Assembly: GCA_030539215.1 (NCBI GenBank)
Contig: JAUNSM010000002.1
Coordinates: 744-64,743 of the forward strand
Origin: Clostridia bacterium
GTDB taxonomy: Bacteria > Bacillota > Clostridia > TANB77 > CAG-508
Direction of reading: 5' to 3'
DNA: 64,000 bases
A model generated the notes under the pieces. It did not search any database, had not been told where the DNA came from, and worked only from the letters and a program-made list of their open reading frames with translations. Every line of letters begins with the position of its first letter. Position 1 is the first letter of the stretch. The position numbers and the translations under genes were made by a program. Positions 3-7,280 of the stretch are shown here, in pieces.

Positions 3-635
3 ACAGATGCATATGTTAATACAGATGGAGCAACATATACAACAAATGCAAAGAAAAATGTAACAACATACGCACCAGTAAGTAAACAAAATGTACAAGC
101 ATGGAATTATATATCACAAACAAATTCTAAAATAGTAGCAGAAAAAATGTATAATAAAGATGGTTTAAAAAGTTATTTAGTAGACGGTTATGCATGGAAT
201 GCAGTATGTAGAGTAATACAATCAAAAACATCAAAGAATATAACAAATTCAACAACATGGGGAAATTATTATAATAATACAACTACAAATTACGAAGGAT
301 TAAATACATTGTTTGCAATGCATGGTTATAATTCTGGTTGGACAATTGCAAGTACATATAGCAAGGGAACTGTAATAGGAGCACCTAAAAATTCTGGACT
401 AAATAGATTAGAACTTGCAACAGGAGCAAGTGATGATTTTAAAGCATATAATGTATACGATATAGCAGGAAATATGTGGGAATGGACAACAGAGAATAAC
501 GGAACATACGCAGTGCGTCGTGGGGGGAGCTTCAACAACTATGGCTCTAGCTATCCTGCCGTTTACAGCCACGGTGGCGATGGTGTAGGCAATTGCGACT
601 TCAACTTCGGTTTTCGCGTCGTGCTTTATATGTAG
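3..635 (+). CDS. DGR variable (target) protein with a C-terminal FGE-sulfatase / C-type-lectin fold; 5' end lies outside the window
   Basis: The frame is open from base 3, upstream of the first Met at 147. The C-terminus ...GNMWEWT...RRGGSF...FGFRVV is the CLec/FGE fold typical of DGR targets. Its last 114 nt are the VR that pairs with the TR at 2596-2709. Confidence 0.85.
   Translation, partial: TDAYVNTDGATYTTNAKKNVTTYAPVSKQNVQAWNYISQTNSKIVAEKMYNKDGLKSYLVDGYAWNAVCRVIQSKTSKNITNSTTWGNYYNNTTTNYEGLNTLFAMHGYNSGWTIASTYSKGTVIGAPKNSGLNRLELATGASDDFKAYNVYDIAGNMWEWTTENNGTYAVRRGGSFNNYGSSYPAVYSHGGDGVGNCDFNFGFRVVLYM
512..625 (+). repeat. DGR variable region (VR)
   Basis: 114 nt match the reverse complement of 2596-2709 except at 11 positions. 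All 11 are adenines in the TR sense strand (A to G x6, T x4, C x1), mostly in AAY codons. Confidence 0.95.
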
Positions 636-636
636 C

Positions 637-661
637 ACTGACCCTTGTTGATATAGTCAGT
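637..661 (+). promoter_or_regulatory. Hairpin just 3' of the VR (possible DGR homing-associated stem-loop)
   Basis: ACTGAC (637-642) and GTCAGT (656-661) form a 6-bp stem with a 13-nt loop. It starts 2 nt after the target gene stop codon. Confidence 0.4.
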
Positions 662-777: not shown

Positions 778-1158
778 GTGACAAGTGTTGTAAATGAAAA
801 AAAAGATTCATCACTTATACTTATTCCAAAGTATGAAATCTATGTAGAATATATGTTGGAAATAATTTTATTACAATTACCTAGAACGGAAAAATATAGT
901 ATTGGTAATGAATATAAAACATTAATGTATGAAACATTAAGAGATATTATGTATGTTGATAAAATGGAAAAAAGTAAAAAATTGCTATATTTAAATAAAA
1001 TAGATGCACAATTAAATACTCAAAGAATTTTGCTAAGAATAATGAAAAAAATGCACTGGATAAATGAGAAAAAATTTAACTATGTAATGAATACTTTAAT
1101 AAAAGAAATTGGAATGATTTTAGGTGGGTTAATAAAATATTATGCCAAAAACAATTAG
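778..1158 (+). CDS. avd: DGR accessory variability determinant (Avd, four-helix-bundle protein)
   Basis: 126 aa, helical and basic, with a GTG start. It sits between the VR gene and the RT and overlaps the RT start, which is the canonical avd position. Confidence 0.75.
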   Translation: MTSVVNEKKDSSLILIPKYEIYVEYMLEIILLQLPRTEKYSIGNEYKTLMYETLRDIMYVDKMEKSKKLLYLNKIDAQLNTQRILLRIMKKMHWINEKKFNYVMNTLIKEIGMILGGLIKYYAKNN

Positions 1159-2167
1159 AAATGAATTTTATAAATATTTGAGTTACGACAAGCTTATGGA
1201 AGCTCATTTGAAATGTCAAAAAGGTAAAAAAAATAGAATAAATGTAATAAAATTTAATGTAAAAAAAGAAGAATATGTACAATGGTTATATGAACAAATC
1301 AAAAATAAAAAATACAAGCAAGGAAAATATACAACTTTTTATGTAAGAGAACCGAAAAAAAGAAAAATTGAAGCTGCTAGATATATGGATAGAGTTGTGC
1401 ATAGGTGGATATTTGATAATTTTCTTGAACCAGCATTTTTACCTCAAATGATAGATACTACATATGCTTGTATAAAAGGAAGAGGAATGCATAAGGCTGC
1501 TTTAGATGTTCAAAATGCAATGAAGAAATGCCAAAAAGAATTCGGAAGTTATTATATATTAAAAATGGATGTTGCAAAATATTTTCAAAGCATAGATAAA
1601 GATATTTTAATGAATATAATAAAAAGAAAGATTAAAGATTTAGATTTATTAGAATTAATTAATCAAACAATATACTATGGAAGAGATGAAAGTGGAATTC
1701 CAATTGGAAATTTAAGTAGTCAATTATTTGCAAATCTATATTATAATGAAGCAGATCAGTTTATAAAACATAAATTAAAAATAAGATATTATTTTAGGTA
1801 TATGGATGATAGTATAATTTTGTTGAAAAATAAAGAAGAATTAAAAGAAGTTAAAAGAAAAATAGAAGAATTTATTTGGGAAAAGTTACATTTAAAATTT
1901 AATAACAAAACAAATATATTCAAAAACAAACAGGGTGTTAATTTCTGTGGATATAAAATAAATGAATATAGAATGAAAATAAGGGATAAAGGAAAAAGAA
2001 GAATAAAGAAAAATATAAAGAAACTAAAAATTAAAATAAAAAATGGAGAAATTAGTTCAAAAGACGCCAAAAGATACTTGTGTGGACATTTTGGATATAT
2101 AAAGTATGCAAATACATATAATTTTATTAGAAATAATTTTGCGATTGATGAAGAAAAAATTATGTAG
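1142..2167 (+). CDS. DGR reverse transcriptase
   Basis: Contains the YMDD catalytic box (FRYMDDSIILL) and the IGNLSSQLFANLY motif (I/LGxxxSQ) characteristic of DGR RTs. It is next to avd and a VR/TR pair. Confidence 0.9.
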   Translation: MPKTIRNEFYKYLSYDKLMEAHLKCQKGKKNRINVIKFNVKKEEYVQWLYEQIKNKKYKQGKYTTFYVREPKKRKIEAARYMDRVVHRWIFDNFLEPAFLPQMIDTTYACIKGRGMHKAALDVQNAMKKCQKEFGSYYILKMDVAKYFQSIDKDILMNIIKRKIKDLDLLELINQTIYYGRDESGIPIGNLSSQLFANLYYNEADQFIKHKLKIRYYFRYMDDSIILLKNKEELKEVKRKIEEFIWEKLHLKFNNKTNIFKNKQGVNFCGYKINEYRMKIRDKGKRRIKKNIKKLKIKIKNGEISSKDAKRYLCGHFGYIKYANTYNFIRNNFAIDEEKIM

Positions 2168-2432
2168 AGGAAATATGTTCTATTTCCTCTATTATTATAT
2201 TTATTTTACTATTAATCCAGCCACAAATACAAACAAAGTCTTTTTCTGAAAAAAATCTATATACAAAATCCGCTTTTTCATCATATGCTTTAACTGTAAA
2301 TTGTGTACGATTTCCACAAAAGGTATTGATACTAATTGTGAAAGTTAGAACAGACATATGCTTTTTACTATTATAAACAAAACTATAATTTATTGGAGAT
2401 ATTATTTCCCCAGATACAAAACAATAATTCAT
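2160..2432 (-). CDS. Hypothetical small protein (possibly OB-fold/SSB-like) downstream of the TR on the minus strand
   Basis: 90-aa ORF convergent with the RT. Its beta-rich pattern resembles a short OB fold, but there is no firm motif. Confidence 0.35.
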   Translation of the reverse strand: MNYCFVSGEIISPINYSFVYNSKKHMSVLTFTISINTFCGNRTQFTVKAYDEKADFVYRFFSEKDFVCICGWINSKINIIIEEIEHISST

Positions 2433-2595
2433 ATTAAATCCTTTTTATTATTGTAGACTACTATATATTCAAAAATTTACTAATACCTCATCTACTGATT
2501 CATATTTACCTATAAAGGAAGGAATAAATCCCTTTAATATCTAATATCATAACTGTATATTTTCCTTGAAAAATATAATCACTATTGATTATTAG

Positions 2596-2709
2596 AGCAC
2601 GACGCGAAAACCGATGTTGATGTTGTAATTGCCTACACCATTGTTACCGTTGCTGTAAACGGCAGGATTGCTAGAGCCATTGTTGTTGAAGCTCCCCCCA
2701 CGATGCACT
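2596..2709 (-). repeat. DGR template repeat (TR), inverted relative to the RT and VR
   Basis: The sense strand (reverse complement) is identical to the VR apart from 11 of its 30 adenines. It is non-coding and much more GC-rich than its flanks. Confidence 0.93.
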
Positions 2710-2761
2710 TAAAATTGCACTTATGACTTATCCCTAATAAATTTTATATTGTAATAAAAAT

Positions 2762-3184
2762 TTATTTTGTATTTAAAATTGACTTTGAAATATCTTTAAT
2801 ATTATCTATAAAACTATAAGCTTTACTAACAGATAAGTTATTAGTATCAATATTAGATATTTTTAACAACAATTTGTCGATATTATCTGGAATTGAATAA
2901 TTATTTACTTTAAAAGTTGTTTGAAGATTTGAATCTATTATTTTAAAAGAATAATTAGATATATTTAATAAAGTACTATATTTTTCAAGAGATTTAATTG
3001 GAAAGCCACATTTTACAATATCTTGATTAAGATTTGTAAGCTTTAAATTTAAAATTTGCGATGCTTTTTTTGCATCTTTGTCAATGCAAATGAAAAATAT
3101 TCCAGACTTGAATAGATAAAGAGTATTTTCATTATCTTTTTCATTTGTTTTTAATGATATATAAGTATCATATAATTTACTCAT
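2762..3184 (-). CDS. MutS domain-I-like small protein (MSL-type DGR accessory candidate)
   Basis: YLFKSGIFFICIDKDAKKASQILNLKLT...CGFPIKSLEKY aligns with the MutS N-terminal mismatch-binding domain ([27 protein letters not shown]...AGIPYHAVENY). It lies immediately upstream of the TR on the same strand. Confidence 0.65.
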   Translation of the reverse strand: MSKLYDTYISLKTNEKDNENTLYLFKSGIFFICIDKDAKKASQILNLKLTNLNQDIVKCGFPIKSLEKYSTLLNISNYSFKIIDSNLQTTFKVNNYSIPDNIDKLLLKISNIDTNNLSVSKAYSFIDNIKDISKSILNTK

Positions 3185-3213
3185 AATATCCTCCTTCGTA
3201 ATAATAAAATTTT

Positions 3214-3498
3214 TTAGTTATCTATTTTTTGTTCGTTAATAATTAAATTTCTTAAATCATTAAATGCAAATTCATAAAATTTTTTACTAGTAGTTTTTAT
3301 AGAATTAAAAAGAAATTTTTCAATCATTATGTATGCATAAATTATTCTGCGTTTTAATTCTTCATCTTCTATATTTGATATTAAATCATTAAAGCGTTCA
3401 AATAATTTTAGATATTCTTTATCTTCAATGGTTATGATATCTTCAGAATGTGTAGAATATATATTCTTTATTAATGAGTTGGATCTATTTAATTTCAT
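3214..3498 (-). CDS. Hypothetical protein
   Basis: 94-aa ORF preceded by an RBS (AGGAGG, read on the minus strand). Confidence 0.5.
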   Translation of the reverse strand: MKLNRSNSLIKNIYSTHSEDIITIEDKEYLKLFERFNDLISNIEDEELKRRIIYAYIMIEKFLFNSIKTTSKKFYEFAFNDLRNLIINEQKIDN

Positions 3499-3638
3499 TA
3501 AATTTACCTCCTAGTCTTTGAAACATTATAATATATAATGTCAAAAAAAGCAACTGCCGACAGTTAAAAAAAGTAATAGTGGGCGGTGCTTAATAAAAAT
3601 ACTGGAATGTTGTATAATTAATAAAAGGTGGTGTAAAT

Positions 3639-3977
3639 ATGTCTTACTTTAATAAATTTGATAAAAAAGAAAAAACAATAGGTAGAACAGTAGAAGTTGA
3701 TGATAGATTTTATACTATACTTGAAAAGCTATCTAAAGAAACTTATGATGCATCTATAAATAAATTAGTGAATGCAGCAATAGAAAAATTAGTTGAAACA
3801 GAAAATATAAAAACTTATGATCAAACAAATAGTACAAAAATTGTTAGGACATTCCTTATTAGAAGCAGTTTAATGAATTCATTAAAAGATTTAAGAAAAA
3901 AATATAAAATTCCAGTATATTTATTAATAAATATTGCTATAAGAAATGCATTAGTTGATGAGGGATTAATTAAATAA
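3639..3977 (+). CDS. Tandem ribbon-helix-helix-like DNA-binding protein
   Basis: Shows an internal duplication: RTVEVDDRFYTILEKL..SINKLVNAAIEKLV and RTFLIRSSLMNSLKDL..VYLLINIAIRNALV. The RBS is AAAGGTGG. Confidence 0.5.
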   Translation: MSYFNKFDKKEKTIGRTVEVDDRFYTILEKLSKETYDASINKLVNAAIEKLVETENIKTYDQTNSTKIVRTFLIRSSLMNSLKDLRKKYKIPVYLLINIAIRNALVDEGLIK

Positions 3978-4080
3978 AATCTCTGTTATCTCTAAAGAAT
4001 ATTAAAAGCCCAGACAACTTTTTGTTATGGAATATTGGTAACGCACTTCAAAACAATATAATATGAAAAGAGGTGTAACA

Positions 4081-4248
4081 ATGGAGATTTTAGATAAATA
4101 CTTATTAAAGAAAGAGAAAACAATACTCAAAAAGTTTGAAATAGATAATAGTTTATATGAGCAATTAATAAAATTAGCAAATAATATTTATGATGCGTCA
4201 ATAAATAAAATTGTTAATATTGCAATAAATAATGCATTAAATAGTTAG
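4081..4248 (+). CDS. Single RHH-like paralogue of the 3639-3977 protein
   Basis: Shares the ...LYEQLIKLANNIYDASINKIVNIAINNAL segment with the upstream gene. RBS AGAGGTG precedes the ATG at 4081. Confidence 0.5.
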   Translation: MEILDKYLLKKEKTILKKFEIDNSLYEQLIKLANNIYDASINKIVNIAINNALNS

Positions 4249-4347
4249 TAGCAATGTATTCTTTTTTATAGTAGTGTGATAAAATATATGAGACTGAACT
4301 GTTAATATAATATGAACAACTATAAAAAAAGAAGGAGAGTTATAAAA

Positions 4348-4596
4348 ATGAAATGCAGTAAATGTAGAAATATTTTAAATGAAGAGAAAAGTAATTATAT
4401 ATGGAGAGAAGGTAGTAAAACAGTTATCATAGAGAATACTCCAGTGCTTTTTTGTGATAATTGCATAAAACAATTTTATACAGAAGATGTTGTAAAAAAT
4501 ATTAATGATATTGCAGAAAATATTAAAGAATTACCAGTTAAACTTTCAGTTATAGATTATAATGAGTTAAAGAGCTATATTAGTAATAAAGAGTAA
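4348..4596 (+). CDS. YgiT/MqsA-type zinc-finger protein
   Basis: MKCSKC...(27 aa)...CDNC forms a zinc ribbon. RBS GAAGGAG precedes the ATG at 4348. Confidence 0.5.
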   Translation: MKCSKCRNILNEEKSNYIWREGSKTVIIENTPVLFCDNCIKQFYTEDVVKNINDIAENIKELPVKLSVIDYNELKSYISNKE

Positions 4597-4747
4597 TGGA
4601 TTAAAGGGACAGAATGCGTTTGTATTCTGTCCTTTCAAATCTTAATATAGTATATAAGATATGTATGAAAGTTATAAAAAATATATACAAAAACTTACAA
4701 TTATGTTATACTTTTTATATTAAAAGTAAAAGTAAAAGAGGTAAGTG

Positions 4748-5437
4748 ATGGAAAATATAATTTATATTATTTTGTTACTAGTAACAACAATTTTATTCAA
4801 GTTTGTATTTAAAATTAATTTTAAGAAAGCAAAAAGTTTGAAAGAAAATAAAGAAATGGAAAAAATAACAGATAAATTTCCAAAAAATATAGAAGTTGCA
4901 AAACAAATGCTAGAAATGCTAGGCAATAAAGAGGTAAAAGTAGAAGAAGCAAAAAATACTCAAACTAGTTTATATATTGCAATTACAAATAAAATTTCAA
5001 TTGCAGATATGAAAAGCAACTATTCAAGGCTTCAAACAATAGCACATGAATGTTTACATGCATGTCAAGATAGAACAATGCTTTTATTTAATTTTGTATT
5101 TTCAAACATAAATATACTATATTTTTTAATTATTACTATACTTACAATATTTAAAGTTATAAACAATACAATGTTGCAAATTGCAATATTAATTTTGTTT
5201 ACATTAATTCAATTTAGTGTAAGAAGTTTTTTAGAAATAGATGCAATGACAAGAGCAAAATTTTTGGCAAAAGATTATATAGAAAAAGAAAATTTATGTA
5301 CAAACAAAGAAAAAGAACAATTATTAAAAGAATATGACAAAATAAACAAAATAGGAATTCCATTTGTAATAGATAACTTATTAACAAATGGATTAATAAA
5401 AATTTTAATATATATAATAATAAGTGGAATTGTATAA
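4748..5437 (+). CDS. Membrane protein with an HExxH metalloprotease motif
   Basis: Contains [11 protein letters not shown] (HExxH) and several hydrophobic segments. Confidence 0.5.
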
Positions 5438-5468
5438 ATGTGATTTATTTAATGCAAGGGGAGGAATT

Positions 5469-7280
5469 ATGCAAAACAACCAAAAACATATTAGAAATTT
5501 TAGTATTATAGCACATATAGATCATGGAAAGTCTACTTTAGCAGATAGACTAATAGAAAAAACAGGTCTTCTTTCTTCAAGAGAAATGGAAAGCCAAATT
5601 TTAGATAATATGGATTTAGAAAAAGAGCGTGGAATCACAATAAAAGCACAAGCAGTTAGAATGTTATATAAAGCTAAAGATGGACAAGAATATATATTTA
5701 ATTTAATAGATACACCAGGTCATGTGGATTTTAATTATGAAGTATCAAAAAGTCTAGCAGCATGTGAAGGAGCAATATTAGTAGTTGATAGTAGTCAAGG
5801 AGTAGAGGCACAAACACTTGCAAATGTCTATTTAGCTTTAGAAAATGATTTAGATATATTACCTGTTATTAATAAAATAGATTTACCAAATGCAAGACCA
5901 GAAGAAGTAAAAAAAGAAATAGAAGAAATTATAGGAATTCCTGCTGATTCTGCACCATGTATATCTGCAAAAACTGGACTTAACATAGAAGAAGTATTAG
6001 AAAAAATAGTAACAGAATTTAAACCTCCGATAGGTGACGAAACAAAACCTTTAAAATGTTTAATATTTGACTCGTTTTATGATAATTATAAAGGAGCATT
6101 AAGTTATATAAGAGTAGTACAAGGTACAGTAAAAACAGGTGATGAAATTTTATTTATGGCAACAAACAAAAGATTTATTGTATCAGAGCTTGGATATTTA
6201 GAGCCAGGGGTTACAGTGCCATGTGATAAACTTTTAGCTGGAGAAGTTGGATATATTGCAGCTAGTGTAAAAAATGTATCTGACTTACATGTTGGAGATA
6301 CAATAACAAATGCTAACTATCCAGCAGAAGAGCCATTACCAGGATATAAAAAAGCAAATTCAATGGTATATTGTGGCTTATACCCTTTAGATGGTGGAGA
6401 TTATGAAAATTTAAAAACAGCATTAGAAAAACTAAAATTAAATGATGCAGCATTACAATATGAGCCAGAAACTTCTATCGCATTGGGGTTTGGTTTTAGA
6501 TGTGGATTTTTAGGATTGCTACATTTAGAAATTGTACAAGAAAGATTAGAAAGAGAATTTGATTTAAGTTTGATTACAACAGCTCCATCAGTTATATATA
6601 AAGTATATAAGAAAACAGAAGAAATGATTGAATTATATAACCCAGTAGACCTTCCACCAATTCAAAAAATAACATATATAGAAGAACCAATAGTAAAAGC
6701 ACAAATAATGCTTCCAAAAGAATTTGTAGGTAATGTAATGGAAATATGCCAAGAAAGGCGAGGCACGTATATTGACATGAAATATTTAGATAATACTAGA
6801 GTTGCATTAGAATATGAGCTTCCATTAAATGAAATTATATATGATTTTTTTGATACATTAAAATCAAAGACAAAAGGATATGCATCATTTGACTATGAGT
6901 TTAAAGAATATAGAAAATCAGACTTGGTTAAATTAGATATACATATAAATAGTGAATCAGTTGATGCATTATCATTTATTGTACACAAAGATACAGCATA
7001 TGCAAGAGGTAGAAAAATGGCGGAAAAATTAAAAACAGTAATTCCAAGACAATTGTTTGAAATACCTATACAAGCTGTAGTTGAAGGAAAAATAATTGCA
7101 AGAGAAACAATATCAGCAATGAGAAAAGATGTTCTTGCTAAATGCTATGGTGGAGATATTACTAGAAAGAAAAAATTGTTAGAAAAACAGAAAAAAGGTA
7201 AAAAGAAGATGAGACAAATAGGAAATGTAGAAATACCACAAGAAGCATTTCTATCTGTGCTTAAATTAGATGATGAATAG
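5469..7280 (+). CDS. lepA: Translation elongation factor 4 (LepA)
   Basis: [28 protein letters not shown] and NKIDL form the GTPase motifs, and the LepA C-terminus ...[15 protein letters not shown] is present. Confidence 0.95.

What the first reader, a model, noticed from the sequence alone, without database searches (positions are those of the whole stretch)
2160..3184. The TR is inverted relative to the RT, avd and VR, and sits between a MutS-domain-I-like gene and a small OB-like ORF on the other strand
In canonical DGRs the TR is transcribed in the same direction as, and usually adjacent to, the RT. Here the A-containing (sense) strand of the TR is the minus strand. The layout is target-avd-RT on + and msl-TR-orf90 on -, converging at 2160-2167. 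The TR RNA must therefore come from its own transcript or from an msl-linked one. The 423-nt upstream gene aligns with the MutS mismatch-binding domain I. MutS-like (MSL) accessory genes have, to my recollection, been noted in DGR surveys, but their role is unknown. The 164-nt stretch 3' of the TR (2595-2433) would be the spacer/priming region.
Basis: partly seen in the sequence, partly recalled or inferred. Interest (0 to 1): 0.65.

Follow-up and report, generated by a model that had tools for sequence, protein, structure and literature searches.

The report
DGR with flipped template–SSB module
This is a real diversity-generating retroelement from a gut Clostridia chromosome whose template RNA module, together with a small and apparently undescribed SSB-like gene, has been flipped to face the reverse transcriptase, which points to two helper proteins (MutS-like and SSB-like) for the poorly understood step of installing the mutated DNA copy.

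Summary
VR 512-628 (+) and TR 2709..2593 (-) match at 105 of 117 positions, and 11 of the 12 differences fall on TR adenines read on the minus strand. The layout is target-avd-RT on +, converging with msl-TR-spacer-orf90 on -.

- **msl** is a MutS domain I protein, shown by Pfam and by predicted fold. MSL is already a published DGR accessory gene.
- **The spacer** 3' of the TR is the known Rfam family RT-14. Together with a covarying 10-bp helix that brackets the TR, it reproduces the Bordetella DGR RNA plan.
- **orf90** is a real, conserved, tail-less SSB-like OB-fold protein. Its family always sits just after TR/RT-14 in one Clostridial DGR clade. I found no paper describing it.
- **The inversion.** In 13 other loci of that clade, RT, TR, RT-14 and OB all point the same way. 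The window differs by a clean ~590-bp inversion of the module [5' flank-TR-RT-14-OB].
- **Context.** In a sister MSL clade, a TR opposed to the RT is the rule (42 of 50 loci), so an opposed TR is not exceptional in itself.

Most likely this is a working two-operon DGR whose RNA acts in trans. It is a new variant of a known kind, of moderate interest.

The parts
3..635 (+). 3' part of the DGR target gene. The open frame runs off the window's 5' end. The C-terminus resembles an FGE-sulfatase / C-type-lectin domain.
   Evidence: The frame is open from base 3. Pfam FGE-sulfatase gives E = 0.0036, which is below the family cut-off.
512..628 (+). Variable repeat (VR)
   Evidence: It matches the TR at 105 of 117 positions, and 11 of the 12 differences lie opposite TR adenines at codon positions 1 or 2. 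It is the only VR-like copy in the 64-kb window.
778..1158 (+). avd (accessory variability determinant)
   Evidence: Pfam bAvd, E = 3.6e-15. It is 80-82% identical to the avd of L027 and L040.
1142..2167 (+). DGR reverse transcriptase, 341 aa, full length
   Evidence: Pfam RVT_1, E = 1e-15. It is 78-80% identical to the RTs of L027, L040 and L047. The conserved C-terminus is intact, and only the last ~8 residues are new.
2164..2192 (.). Hairpin at the convergence point of the two gene sets. It looks like a terminator on both strands.
   Evidence: The terminator scan finds it on both strands. The folding energy is -13.8 and -13.4 kcal/mol, with z about -5 against shuffles.
2160..2432 (-). orf90: a small SSB-like OB-fold protein without the acidic C-terminal tip. 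It is a conserved DGR-linked gene.
   Evidence: tblastn finds homologues directly after the TR in 7 loci. A profile search gives 95 proteins and 268 clusters at E <= 1e-10. Of 55 family members, 33 hit Pfam SSB. The AlphaFold2 model has pLDDT 90.7, and its best PDB matches are SSB and PriB. None of the 55 has an SSB-type C-terminal tip. An AAGGA ribosome-binding site lies 7 nt before the ATG.
2453..2597 (-). Spacer RNA 3' of the TR, equal to Rfam RT-14. It contains a 9-bp tetraloop hairpin (2577..2556), two UAUUAG/UAUUAAAG motifs complementary to the TR 3' end, the 3' arm of the long-range helix (2530..2521), a small hairpin followed by A-rich bases, and a 3' hairpin.
   Evidence: RF02921 scores 89.3 bits against a cut-off of 48.1 and matches the full-length model. 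Conservation is shown, and covariation.
2593..2709 (-). Template repeat (TR); the sense strand is the minus strand.
   Evidence: It has 31 adenines and typical AAC-rich content.
2725..2734 (-). 5' arm of the long-range helix that brackets the TR. It pairs with 2530..2521 and is analogous to the Bordetella avd:Sp 'cPRT Stop' duplex.
   Evidence: The helix has 10 bp and is 100% paired in 9 sequences. Four of its pairs show compensatory double changes. The single-sequence fold recovers it as well.
2762..3184 (-). msl: MutS-like accessory protein (MutS domain I plus two C-terminal helices)
   Evidence: Pfam MutS_I, E = 2.5e-9. The search found 745 homologues. The AlphaFold2 model has pLDDT 88.2 and matches MutS domain I with probability 1.00, rmsd about 2 A over about 85 residues. 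The Phe of the Phe-X-Glu motif is invariant and the Glu is replaced by I/L/V.
3214..3498 (-). 94-aa gene directly upstream of msl on the same strand, possibly in the same operon. Function unknown.
   Evidence: It is 80-84% identical and syntenic in L001-L004 and is found in 10 of 89 MSL loci. It has no Pfam hit.
3639..3977 (+). 112-aa divergently transcribed gene, a weak match to Arc/RHH-type repressors. It is a frequent neighbour of msl.
   Evidence: PHROG Arc-like repressor, E = 1e-4. tblastn finds it in 46 of 89 MSL loci.

Best explanation
This is a chromosomal diversity-generating retroelement (DGR) of the MSL type, split into two convergent transcription units.

**The two units.**
- The + strand unit encodes the target protein (its VR lies at the 3' end), Avd and the reverse transcriptase.
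- The - strand unit carries (p94)-msl, then the complete DGR RNA, then a small SSB-like OB-fold gene.
- The DGR RNA consists of a ~25-nt 5' flank, the 117-nt TR and the ~145-nt RT-14 spacer.
- A hairpin at 2164-2192 looks like a terminator on both strands. It would keep RT-operon transcription from running antisense through the TR.

**Inferred mechanism.**
1. The TR RNA is made from the minus strand. The most likely source is read-through from msl, because only 52 nt and no predicted terminator separate msl from the TR. A weak promoter-like site at 2777..2748 is an alternative source.
2. The RNA folds like the Bordetella DGR RNA. The features are a TR-bracketing duplex, a 9-bp tetraloop hairpin just after the TR, and a TR-3'-end:spacer duplex that would place a spacer adenosine as primer.
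3. The RNA is used in trans by Avd-RT to make adenine-mutagenised cDNA, which replaces the VR.
4. MSL and the OB protein are proposed to act after cDNA synthesis. The tail-less SSB-like protein would coat and protect the single-stranded cDNA. The MutS domain I protein would bind the mismatch-dense cDNA:VR heteroduplex and keep host mismatch repair off it.

**Origin.** The arrangement arose from a co-directional ancestor (target>avd>RT>TR>RT-14>OB> <msl) by inversion of the ~590-bp segment between the RT and msl stop codons. There was also a recombination junction at the msl 3' end.

**Shown versus inferred.** Shown here are the anatomy, homology, RNA structure, conservation and the inversion. 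Inferred are transcription, activity, and the roles of MSL and OB.
For: **DGR hallmarks.**
- A-specific TR/VR differences.
- bAvd and RVT_1 domains.

**RNA module is complete.**
- Rfam RT-14 matches on the minus strand.
- The spacer is conserved, and three helices show covariation: 97.5% of cells paired, 10 pairs with double changes, and 0 of 500 shuffles as good. The slid controls collapse to about 50% paired.

**Everything else is intact.**
- RT, Avd, MSL and OB are all full length.
- The hairpin lies between the two units.
- No terminator is predicted between msl and the TR, or between RT-14 and the OB gene.

**Trans action has precedent.**
- 42 of 50 related MSL loci have the TR opposed to the RT.
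- Wu et al. reached the same conclusion.

**Inversion.** blastn against L027, L040, L047 and L072 shows avd-RT and msl in one orientation and window 2178-2763 in the other.

**OB gene is tied to the DGR.** It sits after TR/RT-14 in 13 other distinct loci.

**Rationale for the MSL and OB roles.**
- Deleting host mutS raises DGR mutagenesis 5-10-fold in Bacteroides (bioRxiv 10.1101/2024.11.15.621889).
- In E. coli the cDNA appears to anneal to the lagging-strand template. ExoI inhibits the process without needing its nuclease activity, through an unidentified partner (PMC12875486).
- The target here is co-directional with the inferred replication direction.
Against: - No expression or activity data exist. 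VR/TR divergence could predate the inversion.
- The arrangement is unique among the 14 OB-type loci examined, so selection for it is unproven.
- Promoter-like matches are no more frequent than in shuffled sequence (37 found against 37.4 expected), so no promoter is established.
- One of the 12 VR/TR differences is not at an adenine.
- The DGR lies at the very edge of a metagenomic contig and the target gene is cut off, so a second target or upstream elements cannot be seen.
- MSL lacks the Glu of the mismatch-recognition Phe-X-Glu motif, so mismatch binding is uncertain.
- The window's own OB protein does not reach any Pfam SSB threshold. Its assignment rests on its family and on the predicted fold.
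Confidence: 0.66

Rival explanations
1. The inversion disabled the element. The window shows a DGR that was active in the past and is now decaying, with a TR that is no longer properly transcribed or no longer coupled to RT-Avd.
For: - The arrangement is unique among 14 OB-type loci.
- Decayed relatives exist. L091 has an MSL-OB fusion ORF with no avd or RT, and L095 has a split RT.
- One VR/TR mismatch is not at an adenine.
- No promoter is demonstrable.
Against: - All four protein genes and every conserved RNA element are intact.
- The new RT and OB C-termini end in proper stop codons, and the hairpin lies at the junction.
- The sister clade normally works with the TR opposed to the RT.
- msl read-through offers an obvious source of transcription.
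Confidence: 0.17
2. The inverted segment is an assembly artefact of a metagenomic contig, for example a chimeric or mis-oriented join near a hypervariable locus at the contig end.
For: - The DGR sits at the extreme end of the contig. The window starts inside the target gene, and the contig of 64,749 nt is barely longer than the window.
- The msl side resembles Type I loci at 84-90% DNA identity, whereas the avd-RT-TR-OB side resembles Type II loci at 73-81%. This is the pattern a chimera could give.
Against: - Two breakpoints only ~590 bp apart would be needed, and there are no inverted repeats at the ends to mislead an assembler.
- The 29-nt hairpin is shorter than usual assembly k-mers (my general knowledge of assemblers).
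- Both junctions give intact reading frames, with ~38 nt of lineage-specific sequence forming new RT and OB termini.
- The TR matches the VR on the same contig.
Confidence: 0.08
3. The TR-RT-14-OB segment is a reversible, phase-variable invertible element that switches the DGR between states.
For: A discrete ~590-bp segment is found in the opposite orientation in close relatives.
Against: - No inverted repeats flank the segment, even at a low threshold.
- The relatives differ by about 20% in sequence, so this is divergence between lineages and not switching within a population.
- The junctions carry lineage-specific coding adaptations.
- No recombinase gene was seen among the annotated neighbours up to 8 kb, although this was not searched systematically.
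Confidence: 0.03

Closest known systems
MSL-containing DGRs ('Architecture D', Wu et al. 2018, NAR 46:11, PMC5758913) and the Msl-carrying Bacteroides DGRs (bioRxiv 10.1101/2024.11.15.621889)
   Same: A small MutS domain I protein is encoded next to avd and a DGR RT. A TR/VR pair shows adenine-specific differences. The survey already noted that TR and RT may lie on different strands.
   Different: Here msl is co-directional with the TR and directly upstream of it, and it is convergent with avd-RT. A further conserved gene, the SSB-like OB protein, follows the spacer. No role for MSL has been published in the papers I read.
Bordetella phage BPP-1 DGR RNA/RNP (Handa et al., NAR 2018, PMC6182149; bioRxiv 10.1101/2023.10.23.563531)
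   Same: The RNA plan is the same: a duplex between the sequence upstream of the TR and the spacer, followed by a small stem-loop and adenosines; a ~9-bp tetraloop hairpin just after the TR; and pairing of the TR 3' end with the spacer. Avd and RT are encoded together.
   Different: In BPP-1 the order is avd-TR-Sp-brt on one strand. Here the RNA module is on the opposite strand to avd-RT, and the gene following the spacer is an OB protein and not the RT. There is no sequence similarity between the spacers; the BPP-1 spacer is Rfam RT-10 according to Weinberg et al.
Rfam RF02921 RT-14 RNA (Weinberg et al. 2017, PMC5737381)
   Same: Window 2597..2453 is a full-length member above the gathering score, and the local helices match the Rfam consensus.
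   Different: Rfam lists it as an sRNA of unknown role found near RT genes. Here it lies immediately 3' of a DGR TR. Its 'unpaired' UAUUAAAGGGAUUUAUUCC stretch pairs with a conserved block upstream of the TR, so the motif as curated is only part of a larger TR-bracketing structure.
Bacterial SSB / PriB OB-fold proteins (Pfam PF00436)
   Same: The predicted fold matches SSB and PriB structures (probability 1.00, TM 0.7-0.85). Of 55 family members, 33 hit the Pfam SSB model.
   Different: The family members are only ~81-90 aa and none has the acidic C-terminal tip. Sequence identity to solved SSBs is 10-18%. The genes are found next to DGR RT/TR and not in replication or repair contexts.

Membership tests
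Diversity-generating retroelement (DGR) | A TR/VR repeat pair whose differences fall almost only on adenines of one copy | tested here: met
   11 of 12 differences are at TR adenines, all at codon positions 1 or 2.
Diversity-generating retroelement (DGR) | A reverse transcriptase gene adjacent to the repeats, with Avd | tested here: met
   Pfam RVT_1, E = 1e-15, and bAvd, E = 3.6e-15, in overlapping genes.
Diversity-generating retroelement (DGR) | VR at the 3' end of a target gene with a C-type-lectin / FGE-sulfatase-type variable domain | tested here: inconclusive
   The VR ends 7 nt before the stop codon. Pfam FGE-sulfatase gives E = 0.0036 and 17.4 bits, below the 23.3-bit cut-off, and the gene is cut by the window edge.
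Diversity-generating retroelement (DGR) | Structured RNA flanks of the TR that are needed for self-primed cDNA synthesis | tested here: met
   RT-14 match. A covarying TR-bracketing helix and hairpin. Correspondence to the Bordetella elements.
Diversity-generating retroelement (DGR) | Ongoing mutagenic retrohoming (RNA, cDNA, VR heterogeneity) | not testable with these tools
   No reads or expression data were available.
MSL accessory proteins (Wu et al. 2018) | A small protein (112-283 aa) homologous to MutS, encoded in a DGR cassette that also has avd | tested here: met
   140 aa. Pfam MutS_I scores 37.8 bits against a 20.6-bit cut-off. Foldseek matches MutS domain I with probability 1.00. 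avd is present.
MutS mismatch-binding domain I | The Phe-X-Glu mismatch-recognition motif | tested here: not met
   The Phe (F30) is invariant in 27 homologues, but the Glu position is I/L/V (I32 in the window). The motif identity comes from established MutS structures (my knowledge).
Rfam RF02921 RT-14 RNA | Covariance-model score at or above the curated gathering score | tested here: met
   89.3 bits against 48.1, model positions 1-144 of 144, minus strand.
SSB family (Pfam PF00436) | Sequence match to the SSB profile | tested here: inconclusive
   The window protein itself has no Pfam hit at E <= 0.01. 33 of 55 family members do, with a best E of 4.3e-9.
SSB family (Pfam PF00436) | OB fold of SSB type | tested here: met
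   The AlphaFold2 model has pLDDT 90.7 and pTM 0.79. The top 50 PDB matches are all SSB or PriB, with probability 1.00. This is a prediction and not a solved structure.
SSB family (Pfam PF00436) | An acidic C-terminal tip that recruits partner proteins | tested here: not met
   0 of 55 family members end in a D-D-(D)-I/L-P-F type tip.
SSB family (Pfam PF00436) | Binding of single-stranded DNA | not testable with these tools
   This needs biochemistry.
Invertible (phase-variable) DNA switch | Inverted repeats at both ends of the invertible segment | tested here: not met
   No inverted repeat was found between 2090-2230 and 2700-2860 at a permissive score.

The most novel reading that the evidence does not exclude
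The small tail-less SSB-like protein and the MutS domain I protein form a dedicated 'cDNA installation' module of a large clade of Clostridial DGRs. The OB protein would coat the mutagenised single-stranded cDNA. Lacking the SSB C-terminal tip, it would exclude SSB-recruited factors such as ExoI, while MSL would shield the mismatch-dense cDNA:VR heteroduplex from host MutS. In this window the two genes have become physically joined to the template RNA in one transcript (msl-TR-RT-14-OB), separate from target-avd-RT. This would be a natural demonstration that the DGR divides into a cDNA-synthesis unit and an RNA-plus-cDNA-handling unit.
Probability: 0.3. Interest if true: 0.75.

Novelty: new variant of a known kind. 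Interest (0 to 1): 0.52.

Why it matters
How DGR cDNA is installed into the target gene is still unknown. Recent work implicates replication, host MutS and a non-catalytic effect of ExoI. It does not name any element-encoded factor for this step.

A conserved DGR-encoded SSB-like protein sits next to the already noted but unexplained MutS-like protein. Together they give two concrete candidates that can be tested in existing E. coli or Bacteroides reconstitution systems.

The flipped module in this window, together with the sister clade in which the TR normally opposes the RT, shows that the template RNA is a self-contained trans-acting unit. This is relevant to engineering DGRs.

The work also gives the orphan Rfam motif RT-14 a specific role and extends its structure.

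Tried and rejected
- **First orf90 search.** A single-sequence search for orf90 found only itself. That wrongly suggested a spurious ORF. tblastn on related loci and a profile search overturned it.
- **PDB sequence search for orf90.** It gave only weak lectin hits, which I discarded as noise.
- **PHROGs.** No informative match for orf90 or MSL.
- **Metagenome scan with the broad OB alignment.** It failed for lack of a conserved stretch. The narrow alignment returned one locus only.
- **Viral contigs.** No OB relatives were found, and RT relatives were at most 41% identical, so I dropped a phage origin.
- **Inverted repeats at the inversion breakpoints.** None were found, so a site-specific switch is unlikely.
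- **Promoter scan.** It was no better than shuffled sequence, so I do not claim a TR promoter.
- **nhmmer with the spacer alignment.** It did not detect Type I spacers. Only the Rfam model gave a borderline hit in one Type I locus, so the homology of the two clades' spacers is left open.
- **Single-sequence fold of the whole RNA.** It was not significantly more stable than shuffles (z = -1.16). The structural claim rests on covariation.
- **Supplementary tables of Wu et al.** They are not held. I could not check whether one of their 'PAG1-4' candidate genes is this OB family.
Full report
**1. The observation**

The window carries a 117-nt inverted repeat, 512-628 against 2593-2709, that is 90% complementary. 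Read on the minus strand, the second copy differs from the first at 12 positions. Eleven of these are adenines in the minus-strand copy (A to G six times, A to T four times, A to C once). All eleven fall on first or second codon positions of the + strand ORF that ends at 635. With 31 A in 117 nt, 11 or more of 12 mismatches on A has a chance probability of about 4e-6 (my arithmetic).

| Feature | Coordinates | Strand |
|---|---|---|
| Target gene (open from the window edge) | to 635 | + |
| avd | 778-1158 | + |
| RT | 1142-2167 | + |
| 90-aa ORF (orf90) | 2432..2160 | - |
| 140-aa ORF (msl) | 3184..2762 | - |

The RT and orf90 stop codons overlap at 2160-2167. Pfam gives bAvd (E = 3.6e-15), RVT_1 (E = 1e-15) and, for the 140-aa protein, MutS_I (E = 2.5e-9, 37.8 bits against a 20.6-bit cut-off).

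**2. The MutS-like gene**

The 140-aa protein belongs to a large, well-conserved family. The search found 745 proteins of about 140 aa, mostly from uncultured gut Clostridia.

Its AlphaFold2 model (pLDDT 88.2) matches MutS domain I in many solved MutS and MutS-beta structures, with probability 1.00 and rmsd about 2 A over about 85 residues. Two extra C-terminal helices are also conserved in the family.

In the alignment to Taq MutS, the mismatch-stacking Phe of the Phe-X-Glu motif corresponds to F30, which is invariant in the family. The Glu is replaced by Ile, Leu or Val.

MSL is already a named DGR accessory gene. Wu et al. 2018 defined it, placed such elements in 'Architecture D', and noted that TR and RT can lie on different strands (PMC5758913). 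Msl also occurs in experimentally active Bacteroides DGRs. No function is known.

**3. The 90-aa ORF is a real, conserved, SSB-like gene**

A single-sequence search found nothing. tblastn against loci fetched through MSL then found homologues at 30-50% identity in seven loci. Each lies directly downstream of the TR on the TR's strand and has its own ribosome-binding site.

- A profile of these sequences retrieves 95 proteins of about 81-90 aa.
- An exhaustive HMMER search of 1.84 billion representatives retrieves 268 clusters at E <= 1e-10, nearly all 80-110 aa.
- Of 55 members, 33 hit Pfam SSB and 15 hit the generic OB-fold model.
- The window protein's model is confident (pLDDT 90.7, pTM 0.79). 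Its best 50 PDB matches are all SSB or PriB.
- None of the 55 members has the acidic C-terminal tip of bona fide SSBs.

I found no paper linking an SSB-like or OB-fold gene to DGRs. I could not inspect Wu et al.'s supplementary 'PAG1-4' list.

**4. The spacer is a known RNA motif and part of a canonical DGR RNA**

Rfam RT-14 (RF02921) matches 2597..2453 on the minus strand over its full length (89.3 bits against a 48.1-bit cut-off). Weinberg et al. described RT-1 to RT-19 as motifs near RT genes. They tied only RT-10 to a DGR, the one in Bordetella.

I aligned the module from nine loci. The alignment shows near-invariant blocks 3' of the TR and a conserved block (TAGGGATAAATC) about 15-25 nt upstream of the TR. 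That upstream block pairs with GATTTATTCC in the spacer (window 2734..2725 with 2530..2521). The pairing holds in all nine sequences, and four of the ten pairs change on both sides.

A 9-bp hairpin with a tetraloop lies just after the TR (2577..2556) and also covaries. The invariant TR 3' end CUAAUA can pair with an invariant UAUUAG in the spacer.

Overall, 97.5% of cells are paired, ten pairs have double changes, and none of 500 shuffles does as well. Slid controls fall to about 50% paired.

The layout matches the Bordetella RNP element for element:
- a TR-bracketing duplex, followed by a small stem-loop and adenosines;
- a 9-bp tetraloop hairpin;
- a TR:spacer template:primer duplex.

Exactly which adenosine primes cannot be decided from sequence.

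**5. Comparison of loci: what is usual and what is not**

I fetched 89 MSL loci and classified them automatically by RT, Avd and MSL profiles and by A-biased repeat pairs.

| Type | Arrangement | Notes |
|---|---|---|
| I | msl> avd> RT> <TR <target | 42 of the 50 loci with a recognisable TR/VR and RT. The TR opposes the RT (verified by hand in three loci). A borderline RT-14 hit in L006 lies on the strand opposite the RT. No OB gene. |
| II | target> avd> RT> TR> RT-14> OB> <msl | OB-containing. |
| IV | target> (msl>) avd> RT> TR> RT-14> OB> | OB-containing. |

Types II and IV together account for 13 distinct loci, all with the RNA module co-directional with the RT.

The window's avd, RT, TR, spacer and OB are closest to Type II loci L027, L040 and L047 (78-82% protein identity for avd and RT). 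At the DNA level:
- avd-RT (779-2140) and msl (2816-3189) match L040 in one orientation;
- 2178-2763 matches L040 in the opposite orientation.

The window therefore differs by a clean inversion of the ~590-bp module [5' flank-TR-RT-14-OB] between the convergent RT and msl ends.

From 2791 leftwards in msl orientation (msl, p94, p112 and beyond), the window is 84-90% identical to Type I loci L001 and L003. Its avd-RT is only about 65% identical to theirs. There is therefore also a recombination junction at the msl 3' end.

Other points about the inversion:
- No inverted repeats flank the inverted segment.
- RT, MSL and OB are all intact. Only the last few codons of RT and OB are lineage-specific.
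- Those codons form a 12-bp hairpin at 2164-2192 that looks like a terminator on both strands.

**6. How it most likely works**

*Shown:* a complete DGR gene set, a complete and structurally conserved DGR RNA module on the minus strand, and no predicted terminator between msl and the TR or between the spacer and the OB gene.

*Inferred:*
- The RNA is transcribed as part of an msl-TR-RT-14-OB unit, or from a weak promoter-like site at 2777..2748. Neither can be demonstrated, because promoter-like matches are at background frequency.
- The RNA folds as in Bordetella and is used in trans by Avd-RT. Trans action is supported by the Type I clade and by Wu et al.
- The target is co-directional with the inferred replication direction. 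GC skew is positive and about 80% of long-ORF residues are on +. This is the orientation found to favour DGR editing in E. coli (PMC12875486).
- For the accessory proteins I propose that the tail-less SSB-like protein coats the cDNA and that MSL occupies the mismatched heteroduplex. The reasons are that host MutS suppresses DGR mutagenesis 5-10-fold in an all-or-nothing manner and that ExoI, an SSB-tip-binding nuclease (my knowledge), inhibits DGR non-catalytically through an unknown partner.
- The loss of the Glu in MSL's motif weakens a simple mismatch-recognition reading.

**7. Rival explanations**

- *A disabled, decaying element.* This is possible. Decayed relatives exist (L091, L095). 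The intactness of every part argues against it.
- *An assembly artefact.* It cannot be excluded without reads, because the locus lies at a contig end. It would need two joins within 590 bp without repeats, and both would have to yield intact frames.
- *A reversible switch.* This is unlikely, given the absence of flanking repeats.

**8. Novelty and verdict**

Already known:
- the DGR itself;
- MSL as an accessory gene;
- TR on the opposite strand to the RT;
- the RT-14 motif;
- the general DGR RNA plan.

New, as far as the searchable literature shows:
- the conserved SSB-like accessory gene family placed immediately after TR/RT-14;
- the assignment of RT-14 as the spacer of this DGR clade, with an added TR-bracketing helix;
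- this window's derived inversion, which joins msl, the template RNA and the OB gene on one strand.

This clade does not appear in IMG/VR viral contigs, and the window's neighbours are housekeeping genes (lepA at 5424-7280, RNase P RNA). It is therefore a cellular DGR. I rate it a new variant of a known kind, with moderate interest.

Noticed in passing
window 13254-13617 (+) and 25405-25487 (+): Bacterial RNase P class A RNA (300.8 bits) and a 'skipping-rope' RNA (71.3 bits), both above their Rfam gathering scores. This is consistent with a chromosomal context.
   Followed up: no
window 4063-4248 (+) versus 3639-3977 (+): The 61-aa ORF is a shorter paralogue of the 112-aa Arc/RHH-like gene. 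Direct repeats 3663-3787 and 4108-4232 are about 71% identical. The 112-aa gene is a neighbour of msl in 46 of 89 loci and could be a regulator of the DGR.
   Followed up: partly
window 3552-3565: The palindrome AACTGCCGACAGTT lies in the intergenic region between the divergent p94/msl and p112 genes. It could be an operator or a small hairpin (read directly).
   Followed up: no
L091 5001-5525: A 174-aa ORF joins an MSL N-terminus (Pfam MutS_I) to an OB-family C-terminus, with no avd or RT nearby. It looks like a deletion remnant of a DGR of this clade.
   Followed up: partly
L095 495-1510: The RT is split into two ORFs of 225 and 121 aa next to an intact OB gene, probably a frameshifted, decaying DGR.
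   Followed up: no
L092 5365-5956: An OLE (ornate large extremophilic) RNA, 347.6 bits, lies immediately downstream of the DGR's OB gene.
   Followed up: no
L006 10527-12212, L099 1-1172, L101 5330-7012: Genes with AAA-ATPase_like plus PDDEXK_9 domains recur next to DGRs of both clades. L101 also has a MutS2-type gene (MutS_V-Smr) close by.
   Followed up: no
window 637-661: A short inverted repeat (ACTGAC ... GTCAGT, 13-nt loop) lies just after the VR and the stop codon, where some DGRs carry a hairpin that aids retrohoming. It is AT-rich and weak (read directly).
   Followed up: no
window 4312-4596 (+) and 4745-5437 (+): A YokU-like zinc-ribbon protein (E = 2.8e-5, just below the cut-off) and a putative neutral zinc metallopeptidase lie between the DGR flank and lepA.
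   Followed up: no
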